This document shows, piece after piece, positions 14,351 to 58,527 of a stretch of 64,000 bases of DNA. A program made the position numbers and the translations under genes. This DNA comes from Octopus vulgaris (taxonomy: Eukaryota), in contig OX597837.1 in the NCBI GenBank assembly GCA_951406725.2, forward strand, positions 10,788,001 through 10,852,000, given 5' to 3'. The number at the start of each line of letters is the position of its first letter. Within the stretch, counting starts at the first letter, position 1. The notes below the pieces were generated by a model. The model did not search any database, was not told the DNA's origin, and worked only from the letters and a program-made list of their open reading frames with translations.

Positions 14351-14384
14351 TATGACGTTTCGGAGATTAGTCCTTCTTCGGATA
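14351..14384 (-). ncRNA. Minimal hammerhead ribozyme motif
   Basis: Minus strand UAU-CCGAAGA-A-GGA-CUAAUC-UCC-GAAA-CGUC-AUA; palindromic ACGU stem III, GUC triplet, U4C variant. Confidence 0.65.
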
Positions 14385-14599
14385 CCATAGGAAAGTCCAG
14401 GGGAGACTGGGTAGAGGGTGGGTAACATTCTTATACATTTGATAGTTGTATAAAAATACAGACATTATGTATGTATATGTGTGTATATATGTGTACATGC
14501 TGTGAGCCTATATACACATGTTCTTTTATAAGTTTCAGTCACGCCGGAGCATGTATATAGGTTTTAGAAGTAGGAAGAAAAGAGCACAGTGCTTAGGGT

Positions 14600-14658
<59 letters not shown>

Positions 14659-14714
14659 GTGTATATATATAGATAGATAGGTTTGGTTAAGCGGAAGAAT
14701 TCACTGCTTAAATT

Positions 14715-14738
14715 TCTATGCATGTATGTATATCTATA

Positions 14739-14769
<31 letters not shown>

Positions 14770-15030
14770 GTACATGTGTGTATGTATATACATACTTATG
14801 TTTATGTACATGTATGGATATACTTATGTATATATATGTACATGTATGTATATGCACATATATATACACACATATATATATGTACATGTATGTATGTGCA
14901 CACATATATATATACACATATATATGTACATGTATGTATATGCACATTATATATATGTATATATATATCTATGTACATGTATGTATATGCACATTATATG
15001 TATATATGTACATGTATGAATGTATGTATA
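14715..15030. repeat. TA/TG/CA compound micro-/minisatellite
   Basis: Read directly. Confidence 0.93.
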
Positions 15031-15954
15031 GCCAAATCCTGTTTTATGAAATATTAATTCCCCTACAGAAGTGAAATATCACCAGTATGCCAGAATTTCA
15101 ATTTTGATGTAGAAAATGGCATTTGCTTCAATATTTTTTTGTCCATTTTCGCTCCGATAACAAAAAATTATTTAATAAATAATGAGTATATAATGTGTTT
15201 TTATAAATAAAAGTCATCAAGTGATAACTTCAGATCAATAGCACTTGTTGTACGGATTACATTGCATTCTCGTCACTTAACCCGGATCGAGCAGACGTAT
15301 TTGATTGAAAGCGCTCCGGTGATGGCCATCCTGTCGTTTTGTATATCAGGAACTACGGTATTTAATGTGTACTTGTTTTATTTTTTAAAAGCTATATTTA
15401 AGAGAGATGTTGTTGCTATTTCTGGCGTGTCAAACAACCGTGCAGACACCACTTCGTTTTAGGTTGCAAATTCAGACTGCATCCTAAGATCATGTGTGTA
15501 TGTAAGGATATATATGTGTATATATGTATACACACTTTTATTTATTTCAGTCATTTGACTGCGGCCATGCTGGAGCACTGCCTTTAGTCGAACAAATTGA
15601 CCCCAGGTCTTATTCTTTGTAAGCCTTGTACTTATTCTATAGGTTTCTTTTGCCGAATCGCTAAGTTACGGGGACGTAAACACACCAGCATCGGTTGTCA
15701 AGCGATGGTGGGGGTCAAACACAGACACACAAACACATATATATATATATACGACGGGCTTCTTTCAGTTTCCTTCTACCAATTTCATTCACAAGGCTTT
15801 GGTCGGCCCGAGGCTATAGTAGAAGACACTTGCCCAAGGTGCCACGCTGTGGGACTTAGCCCTGGACCATGTGATTAGGAAGCAAGCTACTTAACACACA
15901 GCCACTCCTGACGAAGGCAGGTGTATTACTTTGACGTTCGGGAAAAAATGGAAA

Positions 15955-15990
15955 AGCCTGGGGTTTCGAGCCTACGCTCTTCGTCAGAAA
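15955..15990 (-). ncRNA. Degenerate minimal hammerhead motif (cleavage triplet lost)
   Basis: Minus strand UUU-CUGACGA-A-GAGC-GUAG-GCUC-GAAA-CCCC; core and stem II intact, no NUH. Confidence 0.55.
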
Positions 15991-16486
15991 GGGCTGATAG
16001 GAAAAAAGTGGAAAGAGAACGGGGTGAGGATGTGTAGGGATTAACGGTTCTACATAATGAAATGACCATATATAGATAGATAGATAGATGTGTGTGTGTA
16101 TATACACACAGTCATACATTCCTGCTTTGATGTCTAAGCGAGGAGAAAAGTACGCAATATATGGCGCAGAGTTTATTCGTTCGAAAATTACCCCCTTTTT
16201 TTTTACCCCTTTCGACACTTGAAGAATCGCACACGACGAAGAACTCTCGAGCTGCGAAGAGCGTATTCCACAGAAGCCACTTAGCAAAAAAATCGCGGAC
16301 GAGGTTGTGAAGAATATTCCGTCCTTATATGATCGCAACAAACGGTTGCCACTGTGGTGTTGATACCGGATCTCCGTTGCCAACCTCTAGTTTATTTACT
16401 CTCTGCATATGTATCAATATAATGTGTGTATGTGTATATATTGTAACTGAAGGTGGTGGATAGCTGGTCTTATATTGCGCCTATAT

Positions 16487-16520
<34 letters not shown>

Positions 16521-17999
16521 GTTTGTATGTGTGTGTATGCATACACGCACACAGTTACGTCTGTGGCCCAATCCCTCTTGTTTGTAAAAACAACCCGGAT
16601 ATCCTAAATCTGGCGCAGGCCCCTTTTTCAAGACGCGAGCCGCAAGCGACATGGCTCGGTACTAGGGGACCTGCACTGCTAAAAAACAATCGGCGGCGGT
16701 AAAGAATACGTACACTACCCGTTTTAGGCCCTAACAAAAACCCTAACCCTAAAACACCGGGTGTACGTATTTTTTTACTTTTGCCAAAAATTCAAGGTAA
16801 AATTTTGCCGCGGGTCGCAGTTTGCCCATGTCTGTCATCAAAGATAGACAGGACAGGTGTGTGTAATCCCATGTTAGTCTGATCGACCAGGTACCAGTAA
16901 TCAAAGGCGTTGTCACTATGACAATACAAATATCTTATCTTTTGAGACTCTTTCGTTTTGCTAACGGAAGACTATAATTTGGAGTAGATTTAGTTGCTAT
17001 TTCTAGCAGGTCGTGCGACAGCAGTAGAAGTTCCCGTCACGGTTGCCTATTGAAGTGTACTAAACTATTTCTCTTCCCTCTTTAAAACGAGTTTATCAAC
17101 CATGTGCGTGATAAATTATTTTGTGGTTTTTGTCGTGTAGAGTTTGTGATAATAAGATGTTGTGTGTCGATTTATATATTAAACTATACTCAAAAATATA
17201 CCTCAACACGTATTTACTCGTGTACTAATTAAATGTTAAATCTTGGTCCTTTCATAGTTTCAGCTTTACCCCGTGTGGGTGGGTCACACCCCAGTTTTTT
17301 TTCTCTTTCCTTTTCAGTTAAAATCTAGTACAAAATAGTGCGACTTTTCCCCCAGTATATGAACTAAACCCATACACACAAACTCTAAATATTTGCGGCA
17401 TTCTCCTCCTAACTTCCGTGTTCACAAATTAAATTAAAATGAGAGTTAATTAGACTCCAATTAATACGTTGAGCAATCATTTTATTTACGCATCAATAAG
17501 ATATTAGCTATATATATTATATATATATATAGCTTATATAACCTTGTGTGTGTGTGTGTGTGTGTATGTATGATGTATGTATTATATATTTATATATATA
17601 TCCACAAATTTTTATGGATAACACCATACAAAATTCTGGTGCATCTAAATTAAGTACCATATTCATTTGAATCTAAATTTTTGCTGAACTATATATATAT
17701 ATATATATATGTTACACGCAGACTTCTGGTTAGACATTGAGAACAGACAAGGAAAGAAGTCAGGGAAGAAAACATTTTCTGAGAAGGAAGTTAGTATAAA
17801 AAACCATTGAAACGCTTCTTGGCGTTCTAAAATAAGGTGGACAGACAACCTTTATATATATTATATACACACATATTTATATATATATGTATGTATAATC
17901 TCCAGAATTCTGTGTTAGTCATCACCTGTGTTGAGGGGTAGTGAGTAAAGATAATTAATATTTCTAACCCAGTTTAGCTTCTTTTTTTTATTAATTATT

Positions 18000-18288
18000 A
18001 TAGTTCTTTCTGGTTCTCACGCGGTCGAGATAAAGCAGTCACAGAAATGGCACGAGTGCCTAAGAACTGTGTGCAGTGAAAGCCGCTTAATGTGATCGTT
18101 TTTTGTCGTTTTCCCTCTTGCTGTTGTAAACGGAGCTTCTTAGAGAGCAGTAGCAAAGAACCGAAGCTTGATAACATTATGCGGAAGCTAACAATATCCT
18201 TAACTTGTCTTAGTAGGAATCCATTTAATGTTGAGCGCTATAACATCCATGATTCTAATAAGCGGCTAATATATATATACTTTTTACT

Positions 18289-18325
<37 letters not shown>

Positions 18326-18416
18326 TTATCGTATATATATGTGTGTGTTACTGGGAAAATAGATTCGAATAAACAAACATTATTGCATATATAACAAATC
18401 AAACAGCCATAATTGA

Positions 18417-18474
<58 letters not shown>

Positions 18475-18853
18475 GTGTATGTATATACATCTAGGTTTGG
18501 TGTTAAAGGAACATAGAAATCCAAATATTGGTATATATTAATTTATTTTTTTTATTATTAATCAGCGATGTCTGGAAGAGCCGAGGGTTACGTCCAATTG
18601 GACTTACGAAGCTGGTTTCAAATTATGGTGCCGTGAGCGGGGGAGGGTCGCATTTTATACAGACCGGTTAAAATAATAATTCTCTGGTTTCTTTGCACGG
18701 AACTCTCTCTCCTTGAACCACTCTAATTCTACCGATGATAATAATAAATAATATATATATATGTATGTATAATGTTCAAATGTCTACTCGTATCTCCCTC
18801 CTCCCCCGGCTTTGTCATCTGTCTCCTACTCCCCGTCCCCTTTACTGATGAAA
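18000..18853 (+). other. Candidate alternative promoter/first exon ending ATG AAA|GTAAGT
   Basis: CpG-retaining unique sequence from about 18010; consensus GTAAGT donor at 18854 directly after ATG AAA (18848-18853), in frame with the 61465 exon. Confidence 0.45.
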
Positions 18854-19171
18854 GTAAGTTCGCTTTTTTTTTTCTTTTTATATATTAGCTGCCCCTCCTC
18901 CCTTTGTAAGTTGCTTTTCCTTGCTGCTGTGACCCTAATTTTCACTTTAGGTCAATATAGATAGATAGGTAATCGCGTATTCGTTCCTCTGTTCGTCTCT
19001 CTCTCTCTCGTGTGTGTGTGTGTGTTCAATGGCAAACATCGAATAATGGAATCAGGGAATCCTTTTAATATCCTATTCTTTGATATTTATGATCATGCAT
19101 ACTTTATGGATATTTGTGGATTTTTTCATATAATTGGAGGGGTCCGCGTGAAAAACCTTCACAAGTGTCTG

Positions 19172-19197
19172 TATATACACACACATATATATGTGTG

Positions 19198-19228
<31 letters not shown>

Positions 19229-19254
19229 TGTGTGTATATATATATATATATATA

Positions 19255-19289
<35 letters not shown>

Positions 19290-19354
19290 GTATATGTGTG
19301 TATATATATATATATATGTATATGTGTGTATATATATATGTCTGTGTGTATATA

Positions 19355-19410
<56 letters not shown>

Positions 19411-19535
19411 GTGTGTGTGTGTGTATGTATATATATATGTGTGTGTGTGTATATATATGTGTGTGTGTATATATATGTGTGTGTGTATATGTATGTGTGT
19501 GTGTGTGTATATATGTGTGTGTGTGTGTGTATATA

Positions 19536-19566
<31 letters not shown>

Positions 19567-19576
19567 GTGTGTGTGT
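19172..19576. repeat. (TG)n(TA)n compound microsatellite
   Basis: Read directly. Confidence 0.95.
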
Positions 19577-19699
19577 TTTTATCTATTCGAGGTCTATGAT
19601 TCATTCCATTATTATCGACTAGAAGTTTCTTTCAAGCGGCAAATAAGAGGAGAGAGAGAGAGAGAGGGAGGGAGAGAGGGAGATATGCGTGTGTGTAGA

Positions 19700-20595
19700 T
19701 AATTAAAAGGTGTCTCTCAGAAATCGAAGCGGAAACTATATCTGGTCGGTGCGTGAGTTGAGAGATATATTGGTAGCGGGTGGGGTGGTGAACGGGTAGT
19801 TTTTGAGCTGACGAACGGGGTGCTTGCTTATTCCTACGGCGGCTGCTGTGTAAGGAGGACCAGCGGGTGGTTGTTTAGGCTTTCTCAATCCTTAATGTAT
19901 TTAGCGATAGATTAAAAAAAAAAAAAGGTTGGCGGAGATGTGGGGGCTTTGATCAATTGTGATTAGTAGTCGAAAACTCCCTCTATTCGGTGTTTTTAGA
20001 GTGAGTATTGTTAAGAGTCTGCGTTCGATATCGGCCGGACTAAGAGCTTGGCCTTACAATTACTACTACTACTACTACCGTGGTCATATTTCTACTCCTA
20101 CTACCACTATTACTATTACTCCCCCTCCCTCGACTATCCCCTTCACTGTTATCACGAGCATCCCCTTCTGTGTTATCACGAGCCGACAATGGAGCTTGTA
20201 TGTGGTCGTCGCTCCTCCTAGAAATTCTAACCAAAATCTCCCTTTTATCACGCTCCACAGTCGAAGGAAAGACGAACGATGTCGTTCGCTGGCAGGACTG
20301 TCACGGCAGGAAAGCCTTTGGTCATCGTAAGGTGTGCTTTTACGGTGCTGCCGACCTTGGTGATAAAGCATCGTCGTAGTCGCCGTTGGCGGCCTCATCG
20401 CTTATTGTTAGTAGTACTACTAAGATCATCATCATCGTCGTCATCATCTTTGCTAGTACTACTACTACCATCGCCCCTGCTGTTGCTGTTATTGTCATCA
20501 ATATTGTCTATGCTACTACTAATACTACTACTACTACTACTCTCATCCATCATCATCATCATCGTCGTCATCATTCCAGTAGCAGAAGCCTGCTT
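19700..20595 (+). other. Candidate alternative promoter/first exon (CpG-rich, triplet-repeat rich)
   Basis: High CpG density, SINE-free from about 16.9 to 20.7 kb; donors GTGAGT at 20001 and GTAAGT at 20596. Confidence 0.35.
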
Positions 20596-21458
20596 GTAAG
20601 TGGTGGATGGAGGGAGGTATGCGGGGAAACACTTGTATATCTTAGAATAATCACGAGATCTATCTATATACGGTGATATATATATAGATAGATAGATGGG
20701 TATCGTTGAGGAGCGGGTTTGTGGTAAGTAGATAGGTGGGTTTATGGGTGGATGGGTCGAGGGTTGTGTGTGACATTTTTTAAAATTCTTTTATTTCTGT
20801 CATTTGACTGCGGCCATGCTGGAACACCGCTTTTAGTCGAACAAAATCGACCCCTCCAGGACTTATTCTTTGTAAGCCTAGAACTCATTCTATCGGTTTA
20901 TTTTTGCCGAACTGCTAATTTGCGTGGACGTAAACACACCAACGTCGGTTGTTAAGCGATGCTGGAAGGACGGGCTTCTTTCAGTTTCCGTCTACCAAAT
21001 CCACTCGCAAGGCTATAGTAGGAGACACTTGCCCAAGGTACCACGCTGTTGGACTGAACCTAGAACCATTATGTTGGTAAGCAAGCCACTTACCACATAG
21101 CCACTCCTACGCCTCTGTGGCATTAAAAAATTTTTTTTATTTAACCTTAGGTCAACCCTTGCCAAACAGACAGATATGATCAAAAGATATTCTACTGATG
21201 ATCATTTCAATTTTATATTTATTTATTTATTAAGCAACATCCATTTTCTTATTCTTTTACTTGTTTCAGTCATTTGACTACAGCCATGCTGGAGCACCGC
21301 CTAAAAGGGTTTCTAGTCGACGATGTCGACCCCCAGGACTTATTCTTTGTAAGCCCTAGTATTTATTCTATTGAATTCTCTTTGGCCGAACCGCTGAGTT
21401 ACGGTGACTTAAACACACCAGCATCGGTTGTCAAGCGATGGCAGAGTGACAAAAACAA

Positions 21459-21513
<55 letters not shown>

Positions 21514-23119
21514 CATAGACACACACTCACTTACATGTGTGTGTGTGTATACGACGGGCTTCTTTCAGTTTCCATCTACCAAATCCATTCACAAAGCTTT
21601 GATCAGCCTGAGGCTATAGCTGAAGACAGTTGCCCAAGGTGCCATGCAGAGGGTCTAAACCCGGAACCTCGTGGTTGGTAAGCAAGCTTCTTACCACATA
21701 GCCACACCTATTATGCATGACAGTGTGGTCAAGAAGCTCACTTTGCAACCACATGGTGTCAGGTTCAGTCCCATTGTGCAGCAGCTTTGGTTTCTTCTAT
21801 AACCCCATATCAATCAATGCCTTGTGAGTGAATGAAAAACTGTGTGGAAGCCCAGTGTGCATATATATATATATATATATCACCGTGACCGACCAGTTGC
21901 TACACATCGCTGGTCACAATGCACTTCGCATTGTCTTAGCCTTCAAATGATGCCACCCCGCTGGCTAAGCGAGCAGGCCAACAGGAAGAAAGAGTGTGAG
22001 AAAGTTGTGGCAAAAGAGTACAGTAGGGGTCGCCACCACCCCCTGCCGGAACCTCGTGGAGAATTAGGTGCTTTCGCTCAATAAACACGCACAACACCTG
22101 GTCTGGGAATCGAAACTGCGATCCTACGACCGCGAGTCCGCTGCCCTAACCACTGGGCCATTGTGCCTACTCTACAATGTCATTCTAAAAATAATGACAT
22201 CATCAAAACCCTCAAAACTTACTTTCAAAACGATGTGAATAAACAAACTTTACATTTGACAGAGAAATCTGAAAGCTAAAGGATGAAAAATTAGAACCTG
22301 CAGATAAACCACGGGTCTTTTGGTAATCTGAATCAGAGATTGGATTAACTAGTTTTGTCTTGCATTAAGGTCTAAGGGATTGGCTTCTCTTCCTAGCTGG
22401 TCAAACTACCAAATAGTTGTTTTTAGTTCCCTGCCATTTAGTTATCTCTGATCATCAGCAATCCTGCTGTGACCATCCCATTTATTTTTCCTTCTGTATA
22501 TCTTGCACTACTATGTCCTCAAATCTGCCTTTCCCATTTTAAGGAGGGAAGTGTGTGTGTGTGTATATAGCACTCACTTTTTAAGAGCGTGTACAATTGA
22601 GCACTTCATACTGTTTCTGAAGAGGGAAAAACAACAGCTTCTAAATGCACTCCTCACATATCATCATCATCATTTAACATCCGTTTTCCATGCTAGCATG
22701 GGTTGGACGGTTCAACCGGGGTCTGGGAAGCCAGGAGGGTGCACCAGGCTCCAGTCTGATCTGGCAGTTTTTCTACAGCTGGATGCCCTTCCTAATGCCA
22801 ACCACTCCGTTAGTGTAGCGGGTGCTTTTTACATGTCACCAGCACAGGTGCCAGGGGAGGCTGGTAACGGCCACGATTGGTTGGTGCTTTTTACATGCCA
22901 CTGGCACAGAAGCCAGTCAAGGCGGCACTGGCAAGTATTCATAATAGTGTGTAATCTGGATTTTAGACCATTCACACTATATCCCTTTTGTGTCTTCATC
23001 ATTTGACAGCTGTTTTCCATGCTGGCATGGGTTGGATGGTTTGACAAGAGGTGCCCCAGGCTCCATTTTGTCTGCTGCCCTTCCTAACGCCAGCAGCTTT
23101 ACAGAGTGTTACTGGGTAT

Positions 23120-24218: not shown

Positions 24219-24339
24219 TTGTGTGTGTGTGAGAGAGAAAGAGAGAGATTTTAATAAATTCTGATGTTTGTTAAATTTTGTTGGCGCATCAGGGGATTGG
24301 TGGGGGGTTGAAGAAGAAGAAAAAATAATAAAGAGAATA

Positions 24340-24725: not shown

Positions 24726-24729
24726 TGTA

Positions 24730-26574: not shown

Positions 26575-27110
26575 TGTGGCGACATTCACCCTGGGCGGGT
26601 TGAGTCGGCTTCTTCTACTCATGGAAGAAGTTTTGTGGGGATATGTGGATTTCACAAGCGGTCCCTAAAAATCTCGCATGTAGAGACATCCTGTTTGCCG
26701 CAGATTGTCCACAGACGCAGGGACAGAACGGCCGAGGGGCCGCCAGTTGCCGAAGCAGACACTCCGAAGATTTTCTCCAGAGCCCCGTCTGCTGGGTTGT
26801 GGCCCTAATACCACTCGGTGCCAGACCAATCCGCTTTGGGTGGTCCTACAAGGAACCGAAGTTCCTGACGGCCGTGGGAATATGTGGATTTCACAAGCGG
26901 TCCCCAACAATCCCGCATGTGGAGACATCCTGTTTGTTGCAGATTGTCCGCAGACGCAGGGACAGAAAGACCGAGGAGCCACCAGTTGCCGAAACAGACA
27001 CTCCAAGGATTTTTCACCCGAGCCCCGCCTGCCGGGTTGCAGCCCTACCAGGAACCGAAGTTCCCAACGGCATAGCTCTGATTCTATCCATTGCCAGCGT
27101 CAAGACCCCA
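26575..27110 (-). mobile_element. GC-rich RTE-type 5'-UTR-like sequence with a tandem duplication (period about 239 bp)
   Basis: Repeat starts at about 26636 and 26875; minus strand GAGCTATGCC..GGAAC-TTCG-GTTCC-TGGTAGGGC and TGTAGGACCACCCAA resemble BovB/RTE 5' ends. Confidence 0.6.
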
Positions 27111-29191: not shown

Positions 29192-29230
<39 letters not shown>

Positions 29231-31091: not shown

Positions 31092-34000
31092 AAGAGAGGC
31101 AGAGAGAGAAATGGAAATAGAATTCAAATGTGTGTTAATTTTTGTTGCTTAAAATCTGTTTTGAAAGATTCCTAAGCTTAATACACAAGTCTATAAAAAA
31201 AGGGGTGGAAAAAATCTAATTTCTAACATCACCTGAGCAAATGTTAGCATGTTAACACCTGAACTGTATGTTTGGCTATAAGAAAATTATGTCACAAATA
31301 TTGATTATTTTTGTTAATGAAGTCTTGAAATGATATCTCAATGTTTTGCATTCCATGCTTTATTTTCCTGCTGTTGATTTCATGGTAAATGTATGTTGTT
31401 AGGGAATACCCATTCATAGAAATTTTAATATCTGAGCTGATGTTTCCCTATGTGGCCACTTAACCTGCTACAAATAGCAATACTAGTCTCCTTTAACCCT
31501 TTTGCGACCCTATTTCCAATGAAATTCATTATCCCTCGAAAATAATTGAAGTTTTTTTCATTATCATTATTATTATTATTATTAAAAGGGGTGAGCTGGT
31601 AGAATGGTTAGCATGTCTGATAAAATGCTTAGTGGTATTTTCTCTGACACGTTACATTCCGAGTTCAAATCCCACCCTGATCAACTTTACCTTTCTTTCT
31701 TCTGGGGTAAATAAAATAAAGCAACAAAATTTGTAACCATAATTATTAAGAGGGGGCTGTTGATTAATTAGTATTGTAAGCGTATTCGACTTGATGAATG
31801 TTATGTGGTATTTTTGCTGCTTCTTAGGTTCTGAGTTCAAATCTTGGTTGGGTCAGTTTTTGTTTCTATCGTTTTAGGGTTGATAAATAAGTACCAGTCA
31901 AGTACTGGGGGTCAGTGTTATCAACTAACCCGCTCCCCTCAAAATTGCTATGTGCCTTAATTAGAATTAATTATTAAGTAGTGGTGGAATGGCAGTCATG
32001 AAGTGTTCAGTAAAAATGCCTTGTGGTGTTTCTTCCTGCTGTTTGTGTGCTGAGTTTACATTCTGCCTTGGTTAACTTTGCCTTTCATCTCCCCGGGACC
32101 GATAGAATAAAGAATTCACCCTTTTGATACCAACCCACCTCTGGCTCTGTAGCACAGATGTCTTGTTTTCAAAAGTTCTGAATTAAAATCTTCCACCAAA
32201 ACTTAGCCACAGTTTATGTTCCTAACACTAGCTTAATGATAACTAAGTTATTTTACTAAATTCTGTGTTATATTTAAAATGAATTGAAAGAAAAATTAGG
32301 GTTGATAAATTCATTGAATGTTAGAAAACCATTTTTGCAAAGTTTAAACTCTACATCTTTTTTGTGCTCATACAGCTTCCTACCCAAACAGTTCCCCGTA
32401 GTTGGCACATTTAATTATTTCCTGAGTGTTTTTTCCACTGAAACAAAGTATGTTTTCTGTTATATTTGAATATAATCAAAGATTCGGAAGGATTTAGTAA
32501 AAAAAATGACTAATTTTGTCATGATTAAACTTCTGTTTGCCATATAATAGGAATTGTGATGGAAAGTTTTGTTTTCAGTCTGAAAGCTTTAAACAGAAAC
32601 AGTTTTGTATTGTGAAACTAGAGGTGGACTTAAGGCAGATTGGTGTGGAAAAAGGGCTAAAGTACTTAGCATTTCAATATGATGTCATTTACTTAAACCT
32701 TTCTTGACCAAATTTCTAATGAAATCTTTCTTTGTCGTTGTATTTAAATTGATTTTTGGAAATAATTAGGATCTTGGAAAAGTTTGCTTAATTAACTTTT
32801 TCATTAATGGCGTTGGTGGTTTAGAATATAATTTAACCAAAAGTTCTCATGTTATATTTTGTAATGTGGAACCAGGAGAGATTCTTAAGATTGCTGGTAT
32901 GAAACGGGCAATCAGTATTCAGTATTCCATGCCCTTCTTTTTGATGGGTGGGGTCCAAATAATTTCTCGTCTCACATAACCCACCCATTCTCGACAATTT
33001 TAACAAAGTTGGTATTGTTTTAGGGCGGCGAGCTGGCAGAAACGTTGGCACGCCGGGCGAAATGCGTAGCCGTATTTCGTCTGCCGTTACGTTCTGAGCT
33101 CAAATTCCTCCGAGGTCGACTTTGCCTTTCATCCTTTCGGGGTCGATAAATTAAGTACCAGTTAAGCACTGGGGTCGATGTAATCGACTTAATACCTATG
33201 TATGTCCTTGTTTGTCCCTTCTATGTTTAAGCCCCTTGTGGACAATAAAGAAATAGGTATTTCGTCTGCCGTTAGGTTCTGAGCTCAGATTCCTCCAAGG
33301 TCGACTTTGCCTTTCATCCTTTCGGGGTCGATAAATTAAGAACCAGTTACGCACTGGGGTCGATGTAATCGACTTGTCTGCCCTTGTTTGTCCCCTCTGT
33401 GTTTAGCCCCTTGTGGGTAGTAAAGAAATAGGTATGAAATGGGCAATCGGTATTCAGTACTCCATGCCCTTTTCTTTGGGGTGGGGTCCAAATAATCTCC
33501 CATCTCACATAACCCACCCATTCTCGACAGTTTTAACAAAGTTGGTATTGTTTTTACTTCCATTGCATGTCCAAGCCATCGTAGTTGCCTTTCAAATTTT
33601 AGAAATCAATGGTTCTAATTGACGTACTGCCGTTTTTTTCAGTTTCCTGCTTCAATCTCATTACTCCCGGCGATCAAAGCTCAACTCAGTCATTTCCTGT
33701 CAATATGGTATATGTATTTCCGTTTGCCGTGTTTCATGGTTGTATCCAGCATGTTTTAAGTGTGTTGTGTTATTGATACTCCTAGAGACAGTCTCTCTAC
33801 TCCTTCGGCACTTTACTTCCGACGCTCATTTCTGTGTCCTAAAAGCTATCTCCCTCTCGCTATCTCTCTCTCTCTCTCTCTCTATTTTATTTTAGTTTAT
33901 TTTATTTTATATCCTCTGGTGAACAGTAACATCTTTGGTTGTGGGTTTTTTAACAAGCCAGTCATTGGTTCACAGTTTAATTAACGAGGGAGCATTTGTG

Positions 34001-37885: not shown

Positions 37886-38365
37886 TAAGTTAAGTTAAGT
37901 TAATTTTTTGGCTCACTGCTAGGCTGTGAAGTTAAGTTAAGTTAATTTTTTGACTCAAAAAGCAAAAAGCAAGGCCATGTAGGGGGACATGGAGTTATGT
38001 ACAGGGTGGTGTTCATGCAAAGAGTTCAGGCCATTTCTGGTCAAGAGAGAGACTTTGAACCGAGCGGTCATCGGCATCTTCACTATCTCGTCCGGCAGTT
38101 TATTCCACGGATCCGCAACCCAGACGGAGAAAGCCCCTCTCCTTCGATTGAGATGAAATTGTCGCAGATAGCTTTTCGGAGTGACCCCGCAGCCGACGCT
38201 CTGGAGCAGGAGTGAAGAACAGCTCCTTCGAGAGGTTACACTTTCCGCTTATGATGTTGTGAGCGAGAATGAGATCACCACAGTTCTATCGGTCTCTGCA
38301 ATGCAACTGATCCAACTACTAGATCGTCATTTTGATAGCAGACTACCATTGCAGGCTGTATCGTG
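37886..38365 (-). mobile_element. CR1-clade LINE 3' end
   Basis: Reverse complement of the 58.6-59.0 kb copy; (AACTT)n tail. Confidence 0.85.
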
Positions 38366-47142: not shown

Positions 47143-47185
<43 letters not shown>

Positions 47186-48514: not shown

Positions 48515-48586
<72 letters not shown>

Positions 48587-49420: not shown

Positions 49421-49476
<56 letters not shown>

Positions 49477-51628
49477 AACACACATGATGGACTTCTACAC
49501 AGTTTCTGACTGGACTTGAAACATCAATTATGGAGAAAAAAAATTATGCCACCCCCCCCCCCCTTAAATACTTGCTATTTGGTTAGGGAGACTGGCATAG
49601 ATTTTGTGTGCTCCGATAAGACATGAATAGCTATAGCACCAACAGACAGTGTAGAAGTAGTATTTTTCTGTTTAAAATAGTTGAGCAAGTTATATAACAA
49701 AAGAAGAAATGGCATTTAAAGCCGGCTAATTTCCTTTTTTTTCAAACAGTTCTTGACGCTGGAGTCAGACAATTAGTGATTTTAAATGCAGGCATAAAAC
49801 TGCCGTAAATCTGGTAATAGAAAATTTATTGATTCAAATTATGGTAAATTTCTACAGCAGTAGTCTTTGAAGAAGAAGAAATGTTCCGTTTTTCTTTTGA
49901 TACCGACACTCAGCAGCTGGATTGTTTGTGTATGGAAAAAAATAAAAAGAAAGAAAATAATTAAATTAATAAATCAAATAAAAAGAAAGATTGCATGCTG
50001 AACTTAAATTAAAAGTCAGCAGTGTGTGTGTGTGTGTGTGGTTTTAATTACTGTGTTTGATGGCACAAAAGACGTTCAGGCAACATTAGTTGCACCATAA
50101 TTTCAGCGGAGCGCATATTCGAGAGGAGAAAAAAGTTTCCAGTGCATTAAAGCATATAATATAGGACTAAAACGTATAATATAGAACAGGGTGTGGGGCG
50201 GGGTTTTTAGATTAAAAAAATTTTTTTTTTAGTGAAGGGGAATAGTGCCTTATTTACACTAGTAAATACATTGAGTAAAACAAAAAGAACCAAAATTAAA
50301 ATTTTTTTTTTTTTTTTTTAGATTAAATATTGTGTTTTTTATAATTTTTTTTCTCTGCTTTTATGGGATAGAAAGGGAGTTTCTAAATTATTCTGTTCTC
50401 ATGGCACAGATTTCCTTAAAATTCTCTGAGAAATATTTATGATAATTGATTTTACCGCAGTATATAGTTCACGTCACTGCATAGAATATTTCTTCTTTGG
50501 GGTATGACTATTTACAAGAACAGGTTTTGTATTTTTTAATAACGATGATAATAATAATAATTTTTCCTGATTTAGGTACATGGTCAGCAATTCTGAAAGC
50601 AGGGTTTTTAGTCAATAACATTAACCCCCAGTATTTGACCGCTACTTGATTTTATTCAGATTTCCTTATTGCATTGCAAACTTGGTAAATTGAAATTCCA
50701 CTATATTACACACACACACAATCACCATCATCATTTAATGTCCATGCTAGGGGTTGAACGGTTTGACAGGAGCTAGCAAGCCGGAGGGCTGCACCAGGTT
50801 CTGCTTGTCAGTTTTGCCATGGTTTCTACCACTGGATGCCCTTCTTAACACCAACCATTTCACAAAGTGTACTGAGTAATTTCTATGTTGGGTGCATTTT
50901 ACGTTGTGCTGTCCAGGGGCTTTCTACATGGCCCCCGGCATGAGTGCCTTTTACGTGGCCCCAACAGAGGTGCTTTTCACAGTTTCCTGTGAAGGCATAT
51001 CTGCCCATGGGGAAACATTACCTTAGTTGGAAGCAGGTGAGAGTTCACAACAGGAAGGCCATCCCAGCCATAGAAAATTTACCTTAGCAAATTTCATCTG
51101 ACCCATACAGGCATGAGAAGTGAACATTAAATTGATAATGATCATGATGTATTCCAGCTATGACCACCTACACTTCTCTCTGTTATGTATTGATCGTCGA
51201 GGACTCGTTGTTTGTACACGTCAAAGATTTAGCTGTTGTGTCTGTGAGGTCAAACAGTCACGAAGAGGTTCTCTTACTGGTTTGTCTCCTCCTAAATTGA
51301 TGTTGGTGGCTCCAGTAACATCTGTCATTATCATTTTTAACGCGAGATTTACTACTGGCTTGAATAACATTTCAATAATTACTTTGCGCCGAGTTAGGTA
51401 ATTAGACAGCTGCCGATTAATTGCCTACAACTGTCTGTCGGCTGGTTTTTGTGACAGTAGAAATCACATTAGTTTGTCGTTTGAAAGAAGGCTCTGGCTG
51501 ACTGTGAGTATACACTGACATCTATGGTTTAATTATTATAACATTGGAACAGTAGTGACTGGTTCAGCTCTGAATTTCTCTTATTTTCATCTACATGAAG
51601 GATAATACTGAAGTGTGTGTGTGTGTAG

Positions 51629-51829
51629 CAGTGGTTTTCAACCAGGGTTCCGCCAGTACAGTCCAGGGGTTCCGCTAGAAGTGACAAAACTGCTAAAATC
51701 AGCAGTAATTTTTAAGTCTCCTGTGCAGATATGTGTGCATAAGACTATTAAATTATTGCACAGGGGTTCCTCGAGCCAGTGGAATGTTTCCTTGGGGTTC
51801 CACTCCAGCAAAAAGTTTGAAAAGCACTG
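51629..51829. mobile_element. hAT MITE
   Basis: CAGTGGTTTTCAA / TTGAAAAGCACTG TIRs; perfect 8-bp TSD GTGTGTAG. Confidence 0.88.
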
Positions 51830-51862
51830 GTGTGTAGTATAGGACCATCAGTAAGTCGTCAT

Positions 51863-51923
51863 AATAGAACTCAGAGTTTCAAATGCCGGAGCTGAAAGCT
51901 TCGAGGCATTTTCATCGGCTGTT
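51863..51923 (-). ncRNA. Hammerhead ribozyme motif with extended stem II
   Basis: Minus strand AACAG-CCGAUGA-AAAUGCC-(17 nt with inner hairpin)-GGCAUUU-GAAA-CUCUGAGUU-CUAUU; U4C core variant, GUU triplet, one stem I mismatch. Confidence 0.6.
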
Positions 51924-54178
51924 TGGACTATAGACGCTATGGAAAAAAAAAAATGTTGAATAAAAGGGAAGTTACTCTAATAGGCATGAAAGAAATATAA
52001 AATATAAAAAATTAACCTGCTGTACACAGACCACTTAAGCTTTATATATATAGATATGTGTGTCTGTATGTATATATTATGTATACATGCATGTGTATGT
52101 CTTCTTATGTATGTATGTGTGTGTGTGTGTCTATATCTATGACATGTAGACATGTAAATGTGTATATATATGTTGGTTTTTGGGCGATCTTAATGGTGAA
52201 TCCTCGAAATATTTTGTCGATCTTTCATACATATACAGACGTACTTGGATATGTGTGTATGTATGTAAAACCTATAGCACCATGAAGGCGGCGAGCTGGC
52301 AGAAACGTTAGCATGCCGGGCGAAATGCTTAATGGTATTTCATCTGCCGTTACGTTCTGGGTTCAAATTCAGCCGAGGTCGACTTTGCCTTTCATCCTTC
52401 CGAGGTTGATAAATTAAGTACCAGTTACGCACTGGGGTTCGATGTAATCGACTAATCCGTTTGTTTGTCCTTGTTTGTCCCCTCTGTGTTTAGCCCCCTT
52501 GTGGGTAGTAAAGAAATAGGTATTTCGTCTGCCGCTACGTTCTGAGGTCAAATTCCGCCGAGGTCGACTTTGCCTTTCATCCTTCCAAGGTTGATAAATT
52601 AAGTACCAGTTACGCACTGGGGTCGATATAATTGACTAAATCCGTTTGTCTGTCCTTGTTTGTCACCTCTGTGTTTAGCCCCCTTGTGGGTAGTAAAGAA
52701 ATATATATATATATATATATATATAACCTATAGCACCATGTGCACTTGTGACAAGTCATGCAACGTGGTGGGGAATATGGGACGACTCCTAAAGATCAGA
52801 AGCTAAAAGCTCAGAGCGGATGTGAAACAAAGTCAGGAATGACAGACATGTGTGGGATTTAAAAATAGAAAAACCTTGTGCTACTAGGAGATAAAATTTC
52901 CATTATGTTCCTGGCAGAGGAGTACAATGGAGGCTACCGAACAAAAGCAAAATACAATGTAATGTAGATTTGTGTGTGTGTGTGTGATCAGGTAAAGTTT
53001 AAATCAGTAGGGGTCTGACACTAATTCAAATGTGTTTTAAATATGTTTTGATATCAACCGTCTGGGACTTCGTGTACTAAACTGGTATGTGTTGAAAGTA
53101 AATTTTATATATATATATATATAATTCTTTCAGTCATTTTACTGTGGCCATGCTGGAGCACTGCATGGCACCTTGGGCAAGTGTTTTGTATTATAGCCCT
53201 GGGCCAGCTAAAACCTTGTGAGTGGATTTGGTTGATGGAAACTGAAAAAAATTCATCATATATGAGTTTTTTCCCACCACTTGACAACCAGTGTTGGTTT
53301 GTTTACGTCCCTGTAACTCAGTGGTTGATAACACAGGCTAGTAGAATAAATGCCAGGTTTTGAAAAAATAAACATCGGGGTCCTCTTTGTAAAACTGGAT
53401 GGGCATGGCTTAGTTGAAAGATTGTTGGACTCGCAGTCGTAAGATTGTGGTTTCCATTCCTGGACCAGGCAGTGTGTTGTGTTCTTGAGCCAAGCACTTT
53501 ATTTCACATTGCTCCAGTCCATTCTGCTATAGAAATGTGTTTAGCCTGGAGGGGGATGGCCTCTGCTGGGCTTTCTTGCCCTAGATATACTGCATGACTG
53601 CAGCGTCCCCAACGACCCCTCAAGGGGTTACGGGACTTGTCGATTGTTCAACTGAAAACCTTTCTGGGCAGTGCTCCAGTATGGCTGCAGTCCAATGACT
53701 GAAACAAATAAAAGATGAGATATACCATTGGCATTTGTGTGTGTGCTGTACTACTAACTGTTAGAACCATCACCATCTGGAGTTTGTATGTGTGTGTGTG
53801 TGAATATTTATTTCACTAACTAATGAGGTTTGTATTTGAGTGTATTGTTGCTACATTGTGTGTGTGAGTTGCTGTTATTTTTTAAATATAAGGTCACTGA
53901 CTGTATAGCCTGAACTAGTAAATATCAAAACACAAGCATCTGAAAGAGATTGTATTGCTATGTTTAATGTACAGATGTGTGAAATTATTCCTCCACATAC
54001 ACAGGCTGTGTTTCACTGCATAATTACTATTATAACACTGCCAGAATAAAATTGTATTGTCACTGTGTAACTGGGGGTAGGTATTTCCATTGTTTACGGG
54101 TTTTATTGGAGCTGATTTTTATTTTCATACGCTCATAGTTTGCCCCTCCACACACAGATATATGCATACATACATCCA

Positions 54179-54375
54179 TATGAGGGGGCACTGAAAAGTT
54201 CCTGACTTTAAGGGTATCGTAAAAGGCCTGGTCTGAGGCCTAACCTTCTGAGTTCTTTTACAGGGCTTAGAAAATCTGAAGGACCGCTGCAATAAGTGTG
54301 TGAATCTGGGAGGGGAATAAGTTGAATAAAATCCTAATTAACTGATCCTCCTGTATTTTCTTTTACCCAAAGCCT
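54179..54375 (+). mobile_element. Internally deleted mariner element
   Basis: TA|TGAGGGGGCACTGAAAAGTTCC terminus; QGLENLKDRCNKCVNLGGE*VE* matches the mariner transposase C-terminus. Confidence 0.75.
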
Positions 54376-56569
54376 ATCCATCCATTGTAAATAATGTACA
54401 TAATTCCTCATCTCAAAAATATAGAATAGGAAAGAAACATACACATATATATATATATACAATGGGCTTCTTTCAGTTTCCATCTATCAAATCTACTCGC
54501 AGCCTGGGGTGATAGTAGAAGACACTTTCCCAAGGTGTCAGACAATGGGACTGAAATTAAAACCATGTGATTGGGAAGTAAACTTATTAACTTGTTCCCA
54601 TTGTTGTATATACATACATATGGTGTTGGGAAGGGCAGCCATCTGTAGAAACCATGTCAGAACAGACATTGGAGCCTGCTGTGGCCTCTGGCCTCACCAG
54701 CCCATGCCAGCATGGAAAACAGACATAAAATGATGTCACTGCCCATCTAATAATGTGTACATACGTTCATTAAATGTATATTTATAATTAAGTAGCCTTG
54801 TTTTTTTTAATCTTGGTTTAAGGAGACATCCTGTAGTTTAAAACATAAGTCGACTGTGCTCAAGCAAACTTGGTATTCCAGACATGACTATCCTGTCTGT
54901 ATACATCTTAAACAACAATATTGTTGTCTGACATGTCCATCCTCATTTTTCTTTTCTTTTTCTTCCCCCTTTTTTTTTTGTTAAAGCTTGTAGAGTGTTG
55001 TTTCTACTGTTGTTTCTAGCATGTCAAACAATCAAGCAGAGGCTGGCTCCGTGGTTGCTTTGTTTTGTAATTGGATATGTAAACGTGTGAGAATGCTGCG
55101 TTGCTTGCCCACGTTCACTCACACAAAACCTCATTCCCCCTTCTGTCACCAACTACAGTATTTCCTGTACATTAATGTTTTGTTCTCAAGTTGCAGCATT
55201 GGTGGTCGTTGTTTTGTCTTTCCCCCAGCTGTAATCATCACTATCTTAGCCTTTTCCCTCACTGCACAGTCAGTTCTTAATTAGATTATTATGTTAACGA
55301 CATTCTCTGTGTAGCACCAACTTTAACTCTTGTTTTGTCATACAGATGTGTATTTGAGTAGGTTTCTCTCGGTAATTTAATCTCCCAAATATGTTAATTG
55401 TCTAAGCCTACCTACTTCTGCACTATAACAAACATCTCGGTGGGTTTTTTCCATTGCTACTTCAGAAACTACAGTAAAGTCAGTACTTAGCTGAGGAGAG
55501 AGAATAAAACTGGAACACATTCAATATTGTCTCCCTTACTTGCCAGAATCACCACCATCATTTAATGTCCACTTTTCCATCCTTGTATGTGCCAGATGGA
55601 ATTTGTTGAGGCAGTTTTTCTATGGTTGGATGCCCTTCCTGTCAGCAGCCATCATCTGTTTCCCAGAAAGGTAATATTTCTCCATGTCCAGGTACATTTT
55701 CCATGGAAGAATGAAAACAAACAACCTTGCTGGTATGATGGTGGGGCTCATTTGAAACCATCACATGATGACTTGCCAATGGTGCACACTCACATATGTA
55801 TATACAATGGGCTTCTTTCACTTTCCTCTCACGAGGCTTTGGTCAGCCCAGAGCTATAGTAAATGACACTTGCTCAAGCTGCCATGCAGCAGGATTGAAC
55901 TTGAGACTACATGATGGGAAAGCAAGCTTCTTATTTACTTGCTTCAGTCATTAGACTGCAGCCATGCTGGGGCACCGCCTTGAAGAATTTTAGTTGAGCA
56001 AATCAACCCCAGCACTTGTTTTTTCATTTAATCCTGTTGCTTATTCCATTGGTGCCACGTAAAACTGTGCTGGTGCCATGTATTAAGCACCCAGTCCACT
56101 CTGTAAAGTGGTTGGCATTAGGAAGGGCATTCAGCCATGGAAACCATGCCAAAACAAACAATTGAAGCTTGGTGCAGCTCTCCAGCCTTGCCAGCTCCTA
56201 TCAAACACGTTAACTGATGATGGTCTCTTTTGCTGAACCGTTAAATGACAAACGTAAACACACCAACACCGGTTGTGAAGTGGTGGTGCGAACACACACA
56301 TGCATAGCTGGCTTTAGTCAACCAAGTTTATAAGACACTTGTCCCACACACAGTGGGACTGAACTCGGAACCATGTGGTTGTTGCAAAGCAAGCTTCTTA
56401 CTGCACAGCCATTCCTGCATATTGATATTACACATCCAGAGGAACCTGCAGGCTTCCATTCCTCTCCAGTCTTCACACTTTCTCTACATTCAGTGCCTAA
56501 ATTTTGCTGCACTCGGTGCACAGGTGTCATGCAGTCTACACTTTGTTCTATGAGAAAATTTCTTAGTTG

Positions 56570-57180
56570 TCAGCATCAGTAATAACTCCCTAAACATTCT
56601 CCACACCGATACTCTGGGTTCTGTGTTTTGGAGTAAATACCTTTGTGTTAATTAGGCCACCTGAATAAGAAAAAGCTATCAATTACTTCTCAGAGGCCTT
56701 CCAGGTATTTGAAAGAATTTATTTCACAGGTTCTCTTACTGCTAGCTACTTCTGTACATCTGGCACATATAATAAATAAAATCTTCCTTTTCTGCCAACT
56801 TGCCTCTGTTCCGATACACTCCTAGTTTACATTAGATAAACCATGTGGAATTACTAACTGTTCTGCAACACCAAACTTGGCCGCACTGCAAATCACAACA
56901 GAATCCAAGTCTTCTTTCCTGCTAACTAAAACTTTTGTCGTTGCAAGTTTTCCTTAGCTTTCTTGACTCTCGGCTTTGCTTCCATTTCTGGAATTTCTTA
57001 CTTGGCTATGAGAACTAGGTCACCAGCACACAGCAGTTCCCATGGAAAGCCAGTCTTAAAATGCATTATGATCTTGAAGAGCCAGTGATAAAGTAGGCTA
57101 CTGTGCGATTGAGGCGTTTGGAACCGAATCCTGTAAAACACTTACATGCTAAATTCCTCACTGAATTCTTTGGCAATTCT
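56570..57180 (-). mobile_element. Degraded RTE reverse transcriptase fragment
   Basis: Minus strand TGFPWELLCAGDLVLIA (decayed YADD motif)...KFQKWKQ...TKVLVS. Confidence 0.7.
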
Positions 57181-57618
57181 CGGCAGAAACGTTAGCACGC
57201 CGGGCGAAATGCTTAGCGGTATTTCGTCTGCCGTTACGTTGTGAGTTCAAATTCCGCCTAGTTCGACTTTGCCTTTCATCCTTTCGGAGTCGATAAATTA
57301 AGTACCAGTTACACACTGGGGTCAATGTAATCGACTTAATACCTATGTCTGTCCTTGTTTGTCCCCTCTGTGTTTAGCTCCTTGTTGGTAATAAAGAAAT
57401 AGGTATTTGGCTTGATTGGGGTCTCTGAAGCCTTTCATCTGTCTACAGCTAGTTTTCTTAAAACACCACCAGGTTACAGATTGTAGTATCTTGGTAAATG
57501 CCCTTCTCCAGATCAGCTAAAGCCCCCACACACACAACACAGACTTCAAAATTATGTTAACAATATTTAGCATTTGTAAAGAATAAAAAGTTTCAAATGG
57601 TACAACAATGGGCTATAT

Positions 57619-58347
57619 CTCTTTCTCTTTTACTTGTTTCAGTCATTTGACTGCAGCCATGCTGGAGCACCACCTTTAATCGAGCAACGCAGCCCCAGGA
57701 CTTATTCTTTTGTAAGCCCAGTACTTATTCTATCGGTCTCTTTTGCCGAACTGCTAAGTAACGGGGAGATAAACACACCAGCATCGGTTGTCAAGCAATG
57801 CTAGGGGGACAAACACACTCACGCATGAGTTTTGCTAGTCCGAACCAGCCAGGATCCCTGGTCTGGTGGTACGTAAAAAAGCACTATCCGAATCGTGGCC
57901 GATGCCAGCGCCGCCTCAACTGGCTTCCGTGCCGGTGGCACGTAAAATACACCAATCCGACCGTGGCCGTTGCCAGCCTCGCCTGGCACCTGTGCAGGTG
58001 GCACATAAAAAGCACCCACTACACTCACAGAGTGGTTGGCGTTAGGAAGGGCATCCAGCTGTAGAAACATTGCCAGATAAGACTGGAGCCTGGTGCAGCC
58101 TTCTGGCTTCCCAGATCCCCGGTCGAACCGTCCAAACCATGCTAGCATGGAGAACGGACGTTAAACGATGATGATGATGATGATGATACATATATACGAC
58201 GGGCTTCTTTCAGTTTCCGTCTACCAAATCCACTCACAAGGCTTTGGTCGGCCTGAGGCTATAGTAAAAGACACTTGCCCGAAGGTGCCACGCAGTGGGA
58301 CTGGACGGAACCATGTGGCTGGTAAACAATCTAATTACCACACAGCC
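57619..58347 (-). mobile_element. SINE A with a nested family B element (about 57822-58187, plus)
   Basis: SINE A halves flank the B copy; CTATAT duplicated at the SINE borders. Confidence 0.88.
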
Positions 58348-58527
58348 TATATACCTGTTGTAATTTAGTCAGTCATAGTCTGATGATATTTTGGAATAAA
58401 ATTCCTTCTTCAGATATTCCGATTATAGCAGTGACTCCATCTAAGAATATCTGAAGAAGGAATTTTATTCCGAAATATCATATCAGACTATGGACGACTA
58501 AATTACAACAGGTATATAGCCCATTGT
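58347..58527. repeat. Long inverted repeat carrying two opposed hammerhead copies (probable Penelope-like inverted terminal-repeat remnant)
   Basis: Left arm 58347-58419 (distal part at 57605-57618, split off by a SINE) is the reverse complement of right arm 58445-58527; 25-nt spacer. Confidence 0.85.
58447..58483 (+). ncRNA. Minimal type I hammerhead ribozyme motif, core intact (Penelope-like type)
   Basis: AUAU-CUGAAGA-A-GGAAU-UUU-AUUCC-GAAA-UAUC-AUAU: core boxes, 5-bp stem II, palindromic AUAU stem III, AUC triplet (predicted cut after 58479), 4-bp stem I. Confidence 0.75.

What the first reader, a model, noticed from the sequence alone, without database searches (positions are those of the whole stretch)
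14351..58483. Five hammerhead motifs with four different stem II sequences in one 64-kb window
Motifs at 14351-14384 (-), 15955-15990 (-), 51863-51923 (-) and the pair at 58.38-58.48 kb share the catalytic core but differ in stems II and III (ACGU, AUAU, ACUCUGAGU palindromes), i.e. structure is kept while sequence varies. No PLE ORF is evident next to them. This density suggests a large, multi-family population of ribozyme-bearing non-autonomous retroelements (PLE terminal repeats or retrozyme-like elements) that ordinary annotation would miss.
Basis: partly seen in the sequence, partly recalled or inferred. Interest (0 to 1): 0.72.

Follow-up and report, generated by a model that had tools for sequence, protein, structure and literature searches.

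The report
Decayed Penelope retrotransposon hammerhead stubs
The self-cutting-RNA (hammerhead) motifs are really in the DNA, but they come from only four insertions, two of the five have a broken core, and they are likely the left-over ends of Penelope-type jumping genes, a pattern already described in many animals.

Summary
The motifs are real and above chance: 3 complete minimal hammerheads against 0.14 in shuffles. They are four insertions, not five, because the 58.4-kb pair is one head-to-head duplication. Two copies are core-damaged: 15987 lacks U16.1, and 58413 has G12A. Contigs of public runs show that the 58.45-kb and 51.9-kb motifs belong to repeat families, roughly thousands and hundreds of copies. 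In these families the catalytic core is kept while loop 2 and position 17 vary, and the 51.9-kb family ends in (TA)n. No RT or GIY-YIG fragment and no tandem array lies near any motif. The same motif class from other organisms has an inverted upstream copy in 24 of 81 loci, and in L064 it ends a GIY-YIG ORF. Best reading: solo, 5'-truncated terminal repeats of endonuclease-bearing Penelope-like elements, as described in PMC4209133. No ORF was linked to these particular families, and cleavage is untested. This scan already reported such stubs elsewhere in this genome and in other genomes. One oddity is left: three of the four insertions have a splice-acceptor-like tract 6-25 nt before the core.

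The parts
14351..14384 (-). M1: minimal type I hammerhead (CCGAAGA core, 3-bp stem II, ACGU palindrome, C17, 3-bp stem I); weak and probably decayed; family not tested with reads
   Evidence: custom model R2 27.6 bits, E 6e-6; fold z +1.3
14407..14424 (-). Pyrimidine tract + CAG (splice-acceptor-like) ending 25 nt before the M1 core
15955..15990 (-). M2: hammerhead core and 4-bp stem II (GAGC/GCUC), but stem III broken (no U16.1); predicted inactive; family not tested with reads
15994..16011 (-). Pyrimidine tract + CAG (splice-acceptor-like) ending 6 nt before the M2 core
51835..52009 (-). 5'-truncated copy of a repeat family carrying M3; other copies are followed by (TA)n at the 3' end
   Evidence: tables 2, 7, 8
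51863..51923 (-). M3: hammerhead with CCGAUGA core, 7-bp stem II with inner hairpin, 9-nt palindromic stem III, U17; one stem I pair is lost in this copy but present in the family
51937..51954 (-). U-tract + UAG (splice-acceptor-like) ending 18 nt before the M3 core
51629..51829 (.). MITE with terminal inverted repeats and an 8-bp target duplication (GTGTGTAG), inserted at the 3' boundary of the M3 copy; hAT-like (family name from recall)
57578..57618 (-). Likely continuation of the left (M4) copy, cut off by a SINE block (57619-58346) that is flanked by a 6-bp duplication CTATAT
   Evidence: one search matches the loose-end consensus behind 58543; duplication
58347..58419 (-). Left arm: inverted, more truncated copy with M4 (core at 58413; G12A; predicted inactive)
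58422..58543 (+). Right copy: 5'-truncated member of a high-copy family, with intact minimal hammerhead M5 (58447-58483)

Best explanation
The motifs are minimal type I hammerhead sequences in four separate insertions of different repeat families, and they are likely the 5'-truncated, decaying 3' ends (pseudo-LTR stubs) of endonuclease-bearing Penelope-like retrotransposons. Inferred mechanism: the element's GIY-YIG/RT protein cuts AT-rich DNA or (TA)n and starts reverse transcription a short way downstream of the hammerhead. It usually stops early, so only the hammerhead and its tail are inserted, sometimes as two head-to-head copies (M4/M5). The structure was kept by selection on the active source elements. 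The stubs then decay: CpG transitions, lost stem pairs, later SINE and MITE insertions. A single stub is predicted not to cleave. Its stem III needs a second copy, M2 and M4 have lost core bases, and M5 would be locked in a long hairpin with M4's complement in any + strand transcript. Shown: motifs, damage, repeat nature of two families, (TA)n end, inverted pair. Inferred: PLE origin of these families, insertion mechanism, inactivity.
For: Above chance. M5 family: 2033, 913, 972 and 81 contigs were laid on 58335-58650, many of them on the separate LINE piece at 58591-58644. Summed depth on M5 reaches 281,000 in X1, against 19-60 for single contigs. Variants listed inside the motif are only loop 2 (58464, 42-55% of depth, plus a TTA insertion), C11.1>U at a CpG (7-15%) and C17>U (8-15%). 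M3 family: depth 15,000 in X1 and 34,000 in X5. Position 17 varies among U, A (31-43%) and C (5-36%) with no G row. The centre of the palindrome varies, its arms do not. 92-100% of depth has the base that restores stem I. Copies end at 51835 followed by (TA)n in three runs. Other members of both families continue upstream, so these copies are 5'-truncated. Of 81 metagenome loci with the same motif class, 24 have an inverted copy directly upstream, 0 downstream, and 1 a direct copy upstream. L064 shows the full picture: a 313-aa frame with GIY-YIG (Pfam E 4.7e-4, below the curated cut-off), a hammerhead at its 3' end and an inverted one at its 5' junction. Literature: solo minimal hammerheads, several families, opposite-strand pairs (PMC4209133); inverted 5'-truncated copy, tail and microsatellite bias (PMC8557442, PMC3846280); internal priming and AT-rich cuts (PMC11167929); 30 recently active Penelope families in an octopus (PMC13282606). 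The pair folds to -103.6 kcal/mol.
Against: No RT or GIY-YIG sequence was linked to any of the four families: none lies in the window, no whole genome was held, and loose ends reach only 30 letters. The PLE link seen in L064, L013 and weakly L068 is from other organisms and only 3 of 106 loci. None of the 150 (of 170) upstream fragments scanned had an RT or GIY-YIG Pfam hit. M1 and M2 were not tested for copy number. No tail or target duplication was fixed for the M4/M5 insertion itself. M3 lacks the usual G10.1-C11.1 pair and bulge and carries C4 in most of the family depth (U4 in 5-24%); it was not found by model R2. No monomer fold beats shuffles (z from +1.3 to -1.0); this is expected for dimer-type motifs but gives no support.
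Confidence: 0.74

Rival explanations
1. One or more families are non-autonomous, SINE-like derivatives of a PLE terminal repeat (for example with a tRNA-derived promoter) that PLE enzymes copy in trans; the window holds truncated copies of them.
For: High copy number of the short hammerhead segment. Upstream of the M5 copy the family is A-rich, with no frame seen in the 30 letters available. Unreviewed scan notes report tRNA-headed hammerhead repeats in this genome.
Against: No fixed 5' end: contigs go on upstream beyond 58419 and 52009. No tRNA-like head was seen or tested here. Truncation of autonomous elements gives the same picture.
Confidence: 0.14
2. The sites are dispersed monomers of non-LTR retrozymes (200-400-bp tandem units that make circular RNA).
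For: Retrozyme monomers can be dispersed and derive from pLTRs (10.64898/2026.07.22.740005). Scan notes report 360-bp retrozyme arrays in this genome. M3 has a longer stem III (self-dimer -10.3 kcal/mol).
Against: No tandem period holds a motif, and no direct copy lies within 280 nt. No joint or 43 returns to the start of a unit, apart from one 30-nt slip at 58534. The motifs are the minimal PLE type rather than the canonical type of coral and mussel retrozymes (PMC7229834 passages). No look-alike was found among earlier findings.
Confidence: 0.07
3. The motifs have been kept by the host as a local cluster of regulatory ribozymes, or as a hairpin RNA, in a gene's upstream or intronic region.
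For: Four insertions in 44 kb. A likely coding exon lies 3 kb downstream on + (61465-62069). The pair would form a ~75-bp hairpin.
Against: Two of five cores are broken. The window's M3 copy has lost a stem pair that its family keeps. SINE and MITE insertions cut the copies. In the run guessed to be RNA, the M5-to-LINE depth ratio (0.29) equals that of the DNA runs (0.27-0.36), though contigs cannot measure expression.
Confidence: 0.03
4. Chance matches or an assembly artefact.
For: Short motifs in AT-rich DNA. M1 has only a 3-bp stem II and M2 is incomplete. No contig spans the whole palindrome.
Against: 0 of 100 and 0 of 200 shuffles reach the observed counts. Two families are multi-copy. 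The arms differ by substitutions and a 2-nt indel. One X5 contig (58347-58462, 17 differences) crosses the head-to-head junction.
Confidence: 0.02

Closest known systems
Minimal hammerheads (min-HHR) of metazoan Penelope-like element pseudo-LTRs (Cervera and de la Pena 2014, PMC4209133; parts 1-2 of 4 read, supplements not seen)
   Same: Type I core, palindromic 15.2-16.2 positions, short stem I, bulged base before stem II and G10.1-C11.1 (M1, M2, M4, M5), several sequence families per genome, mostly solo copies, opposite-strand pairs.
   Different: M1 and the M3 family have C at position 4. M3 has a 9-nt palindrome and no G10.1-C11.1 pair. No PLE ORF was tied to these families here.
Inverted-pLTR insertions of EN+ PLEs (PMC3846280 and PMC8557442, passages read; Poseidon of Anolis, PMC11167929, parts 1-2 of 4 read)
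   Same: Head-to-head inverted 5'-truncated copy, AT-rich or (TA)n target, hammerhead close to the 3' end of the insertion.
   Different: Here truncation is so strong that no ORF remains; tail and target duplication were not resolved; the clade (Poseidon or Neptune) cannot be named.
Drosophila virilis Penelope hammerhead variant (PMC4209133)
   Same: Longer palindromic helix III (M3); an intron end mapped at the 5' end of helix I resembles the acceptor-like tracts before M1, M2 and M3.
   Different: No donor site or spliced RNA was shown here; stem II and stem I differ.
Animal non-LTR retrozymes (PMC7229834, passages; 10.64898/2026.07.22.740005, parts 1-3 of 5)
   Same: Non-coding, type I hammerhead, related to pLTRs, dispersed monomers exist.
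   Different: No tandem units, no canonical helix sizes, no circular RNA evidence.

Membership tests
Minimal type I hammerhead | Core C3-U4-G5-A6-N7-G8-A9 and G12-A13-A14, A15.1-U16.1, H17 | tested here: inconclusive
   Fully met by M5. M1 and M3 have C4. M4 fails at G12 and M2 at U16.1. The M5 family keeps the core.
Minimal type I hammerhead | Stems I and II closed, palindromic stem III | tested here: met
   M1, M3, M5; M3 stem I is restored in 92-100% of family depth. Not met by M2.
Minimal type I hammerhead | Self-cleavage after position 17 (as dimer or protein-assisted) | not testable with these tools
   Only contigs were available; they cannot show RNA ends.
EN+ Penelope-like element terminal repeat | Linked ORF with RT and GIY-YIG domains in full-length family members | tested here: inconclusive
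   None in the window; genome not held. Link seen only for the motif class in L064 and L013.
EN+ Penelope-like element terminal repeat | Dispersed, multi-copy, 5'-truncated copies | tested here: met
   M3 and M4/M5 families; M1 and M2 not tested.
EN+ Penelope-like element terminal repeat | Inverted truncated copy head-to-head at the 5' junction | tested here: met
   M4/M5; 24 of 81 metagenome loci; four opposite-strand joints, one contig each, for the M3 family.
EN+ Penelope-like element terminal repeat | AT-rich or microsatellite target | tested here: met
   (TA)n loose ends at 51835 in runs X1, X5, X8.
EN+ Penelope-like element terminal repeat | Optional 30-40-bp tail and target-site duplication | tested here: inconclusive
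   Both M4/M5 copies are cut by later insertions; the family goes on beyond 58543.
Non-LTR retrozyme | Head-to-tail tandem units, each with a hammerhead | tested here: not met
   trf and local alignment around all sites; other loci of the families not examined.
Non-LTR retrozyme | Abundant small linear and circular RNA | not testable with these tools
   No RNA holder on record and no raw reads.
Rfam hammerhead families | Match to a curated model | tested here: not met
   None among the rows shown (150 of 256; 1 of 1; 58 of 58).

The most novel reading that the evidence does not exclude
In three unrelated families of this genome the hammerhead sits 6-25 nt behind a retained spliceosomal 3' splice site, so splicing of the terminal-repeat intron would rebuild helix I and gate cleavage, separating the spliced mRNA from the intron-keeping template. 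This would extend a feature noted for D. virilis Penelope into a recurrent design, and M3 (C4 core, 9-nt palindromic stem III) would be a new active core variant.
Probability: 0.17. Interest if true: 0.55.

Novelty: new member of a known kind. Interest (0 to 1): 0.2.

Why it matters
As it stands it adds undescribed families to a known class: hammerhead-bearing PLE ends that Rfam-based annotation misses. The giant squid paper lists 235 Rfam hammerhead-1 loci, while one family here has roughly thousands of copies. A recent octopus repeat annotation does not mention hammerheads in its main text. A descriptor scan would help classify 'unknown' repeats as PLE debris. It would matter more if the acceptor-hammerhead coupling held in full-length elements, because it would make testable two open points: what the PLE ribozyme is for, and how PLEs keep introns.

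Tried and rejected
Whole-genome work was not possible: no genome is held. Pattern scans of viral contigs for the M5 and M2 types found 0. A genome-contig scan for the M2 type gave 3 prokaryotic matches, about what chance gives by my rough estimate; they were not studied. Look-ups of the four sites among earlier findings gave nothing. No RNA holder was listed; run X23 is only guessed to be RNA and is kept as contigs, so expression and cleavage stay open. No U3-A8 core variant with a 4-bp stem II is in the window. My first covariance model and pair count used a structure string that was off by two columns; they were discarded and redone. Model R2 found M5, M1 and M4 and no further motif below E 1. 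It missed M2 and M3, and it favours M1 and M5 by construction, because its training set came from a pattern like theirs. Post-cleavage tails of the four families are not alike, so a single family was rejected. The acceptor-like tract is not general: 5 of 89 metagenome motifs against a 2.6% background. miRNA-family Rfam hits on the palindrome are far below gathering scores and reflect the hairpin only. The exon at 61465-62069 had no Pfam or Atlas hit. Three NOG1-gene loci (L008, L034, L076) among the 106 metagenome matches are chance hits in coding DNA; they were left in the counts of 107, 91, 89 and 81 where flank length allowed.
Full report
Setting. The window is animal DNA rich in microsatellites and SINEs: 38% is repeated within the window and 8% was masked as simple repeat. 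It looks like octopus DNA; that is a recalled resemblance, not tested. No whole genome was held.

Observation. A descriptor scan (core CYGANGA, stem II of at least 3 bp, GAAA, stem III, UH, stem I of at least 2 bp) found three complete motifs: M1 (14381-14354, -), M3 (51918-51868, -) and M5 (58451-58479, +). 100 dinucleotide shuffles in 1-kb blocks gave a mean of 0.14 and a maximum of 1. Asking only for core, stem II and GAAA adds M2 (15987, -): 4 hits against a mean of 0.235, none of 200 shuffles reaching 4. M2 continues GAAAC-CC-C, so the conserved U16.1 and the palindrome are missing. A GUC followed by a 4-bp stem I partner lies 27 nt further on, but it would close only a 2-bp stem III. M4 (58413, -) has A in place of G12. 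M4 and M5 are the arms of one inverted repeat, both reading outward from a 25-nt centre. So there are four insertions, three complete motifs and two damaged ones. The four stem II sequences differ, and the tails after the cleavage site are unrelated. No Rfam hammerhead model appears in the rows shown. No RT or GIY-YIG was found in 353 stop-free fragments of at least 42 aa, chosen outside high-copy and simple repeats, nor by motif search or tblastn.

The M4/M5 family. Contigs of four public runs were laid on 58335-58650 at 80% likeness (two runs guessed DNA, one of unknown kind, one guessed RNA). Summed depth over M5 reached 281,000 in X1, where single contigs have 19-60. Dividing by 58.8 gives about 4,800; the tool warns that this is no copy number, so I take only 'thousands'. 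Of the 12 substitution rows, those inside M5 are loop 2 (58464), the CpG cytosine C11.1, which leaves a G-U pair, and C17>U, which is allowed; a TTA insertion also falls in loop 2. No core base varies at 8% or more. At the left arm, 40-62% of the depth has the base that restores G12, so M4's defect is likely CpG decay. Other copies go on upstream of 58419 (A-rich) and downstream of 58543, so the right copy is cut at both ends. The downstream continuation matches 57618-57578 on the minus strand. That piece is separated from the left arm by a SINE block flanked by a 6-bp duplication, so the left copy was likely longer before the SINEs arrived. One contig crosses the head-to-head junction with 74 and 41 letters on the two sides and 17 differences; none spans the whole stretch.

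The M3 family. On 51833-52070 depth over M3 reached 15,000 in X1 and 34,000 in X5, roughly hundreds of copies at this likeness, in runs of three organism labels. 40 of 54 variant rows were shown. Position 17 varies among U, A and C with no G row, as the NUH rule predicts. N7 and the unpaired centre of the 9-nt palindrome vary. G5>A (6-25%) is at a CpG. No row falls on nine non-CpG core positions or the six other stem III arm positions, against 7 of 17 loop II positions (Fisher p 0.008; p 0.046 if two changes that may be private to this copy are dropped; post hoc, and C4, G5, N7 and H17 were left out). The base that breaks stem I in the window is restored in 92-100% of depth. C4 is kept by 76-95% of depth, so it is a family trait; one loose-end consensus of 3 contigs shows a sub-family with the usual CUGA. 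Copies end at 51835 and are followed by (TA)n in three runs.

Relatives elsewhere. A pattern scan of metagenome contigs (23 of 64 parts scanned) gave 106 loci with 107 matches; most look like animal host DNA (inferred). 75 have ACGU, 78 have a stem II of 4 bp or more and 33 a stem I of 3 bp or more: solo, variously decayed motifs. None aligns to the window at E 1e-4. In 91 distinct motifs, stem I position 2 pairs in 40 against 24.8 in shuffles (0 of 1000); position 3 in 32 against 24.2 (39 of 1000); positions 1, 4 and 5 do not exceed shuffles. In 34 of the 91, chosen for pairing and so biased, 43 cells show two-sided change against 15.0 in shuffles. Of 81 loci with enough flank, 24 have an inverted copy within 280 nt upstream, none downstream, and 1 a direct copy upstream: the M4/M5 layout is typical of the class. 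L064 holds a 313-aa frame with a GIY-YIG motif, a hammerhead at its 3' end and an inverted hammerhead at its 5' junction; L013 is a relative of it. Most loci show no such frame.

How it likely works. PMC4209133 reports minimal hammerheads in the terminal repeats of PLEs, about 2,000 in a blood fluke and 4,000-9,000 in coelacanth and frog, in several families, mostly single, with opposite-strand pairs; monomers did not cleave. PMC8557442 and PMC3846280 describe 5' truncation, the inverted copy at the 5' end, the tail and microsatellite bias. PMC11167929 shows AT-rich cutting of both strands, reverse transcription starting inside the RNA downstream of the hammerhead, and a ribozyme that needs the protein and is not needed for insertion in vitro. 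Together these predict short inserts that hold little more than the hammerhead. That fits M3 and M4/M5 directly and M1 and M2 by analogy. What is missing is the ORF link for these families. The stubs are predicted to be inert. If the exon at 61465-62069 marks a + strand transcript that covers them (extent unknown), M1-M4 are antisense and M5 is locked in a -103.6 kcal/mol hairpin.

An unexplained detail. M1, M2 and M3 each have at least 12 pyrimidines in 15 nt followed by YAG, ending 25, 6 and 18 nt before the core; 2.55% of background positions (379 of 14,851) have this, and M5 does not. The thresholds were set after seeing the sequences. D. virilis Penelope has its intron end at helix I (PMC4209133). 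Against it: only 5 of 89 metagenome motifs have the tract, no donor was found, and in the M3 family the AG is kept in most of the depth but is missing from some loose-end consensuses. U-rich 3' UTRs could give the same look.

Novelty. The kind is known. Searches for hammerhead + Penelope + octopus (4 of 5 listed), 'hammerhead ribozyme' + octopus (4 of 5 listed), U4C (none) and Penelope + intron + hammerhead + splice + pLTR (3 of 4 listed) showed no paper on these families; the library lacks most subscription papers, and I saw no supplements. PMC13282606 and PMC8967140 (passages) record abundant Penelope elements in cephalopods without the word hammerhead; PMC6962438 (passages) lists 235 Rfam hits in squid. 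Earlier unreviewed notes of this scan reached the same reading on other DNA of this genome and for head-to-head stubs in other genomes; I treat them as leads only. Verdict: real, ordinary, new members of a known kind.

Noticed in passing
window 61465-62069 (+): Likely coding exon with a good acceptor and a GTAAG donor, ATG at 61483, Pro/Ala-rich with DYRD and DRDR repeats; no Pfam or Atlas hit.
   Followed up: partly
window 51629-51829: MITE with terminal inverted repeats and an 8-bp target duplication, inserted exactly at the 3' end of the M3 copy; not repeated in this window.
   Followed up: partly
window 58591-59013 (+) and 37909-38281: Two copies of a LINE 3' end (CR1-like by recall); contig depth about three times that of the M5 family.
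   Followed up: partly
window 56422-57530 (-): Decayed LINE reverse-transcriptase remnant (RTE-like by recall), interrupted by a SINE at 57182-57408; no Pfam hit in its short frames.
   Followed up: no
window 52014-52056: 43-bp piece of another very high-copy repeat (depth 590,000 in X1) abutting the truncated 5' end of the M3 copy.
   Followed up: no
window 16130-16390: CpG-rich unique stretch just upstream of M2, with a possible donor (GG/GTAAAA) on the minus strand; may be a promoter or first exon.
   Followed up: no
window 26635-27047: GC-rich tandem duplication of about 240 bp with long open frames on both strands; no Pfam hit.
   Followed up: no
window 52334-52703 and 33005-33374: 185-bp head-to-tail dimers of a SINE-like repeat, with no hammerhead core.
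   Followed up: partly
L064 2399-3387: Compact 5'-truncated PLE copy in a metagenome contig: GIY-YIG frame, 3' hammerhead with a CCGAAGA core like M1, inverted hammerhead at the 5' junction.
   Followed up: yes
L061 512-679: Head-to-head pair with both hammerhead patterns intact, same layout as M4/M5.
   Followed up: partly
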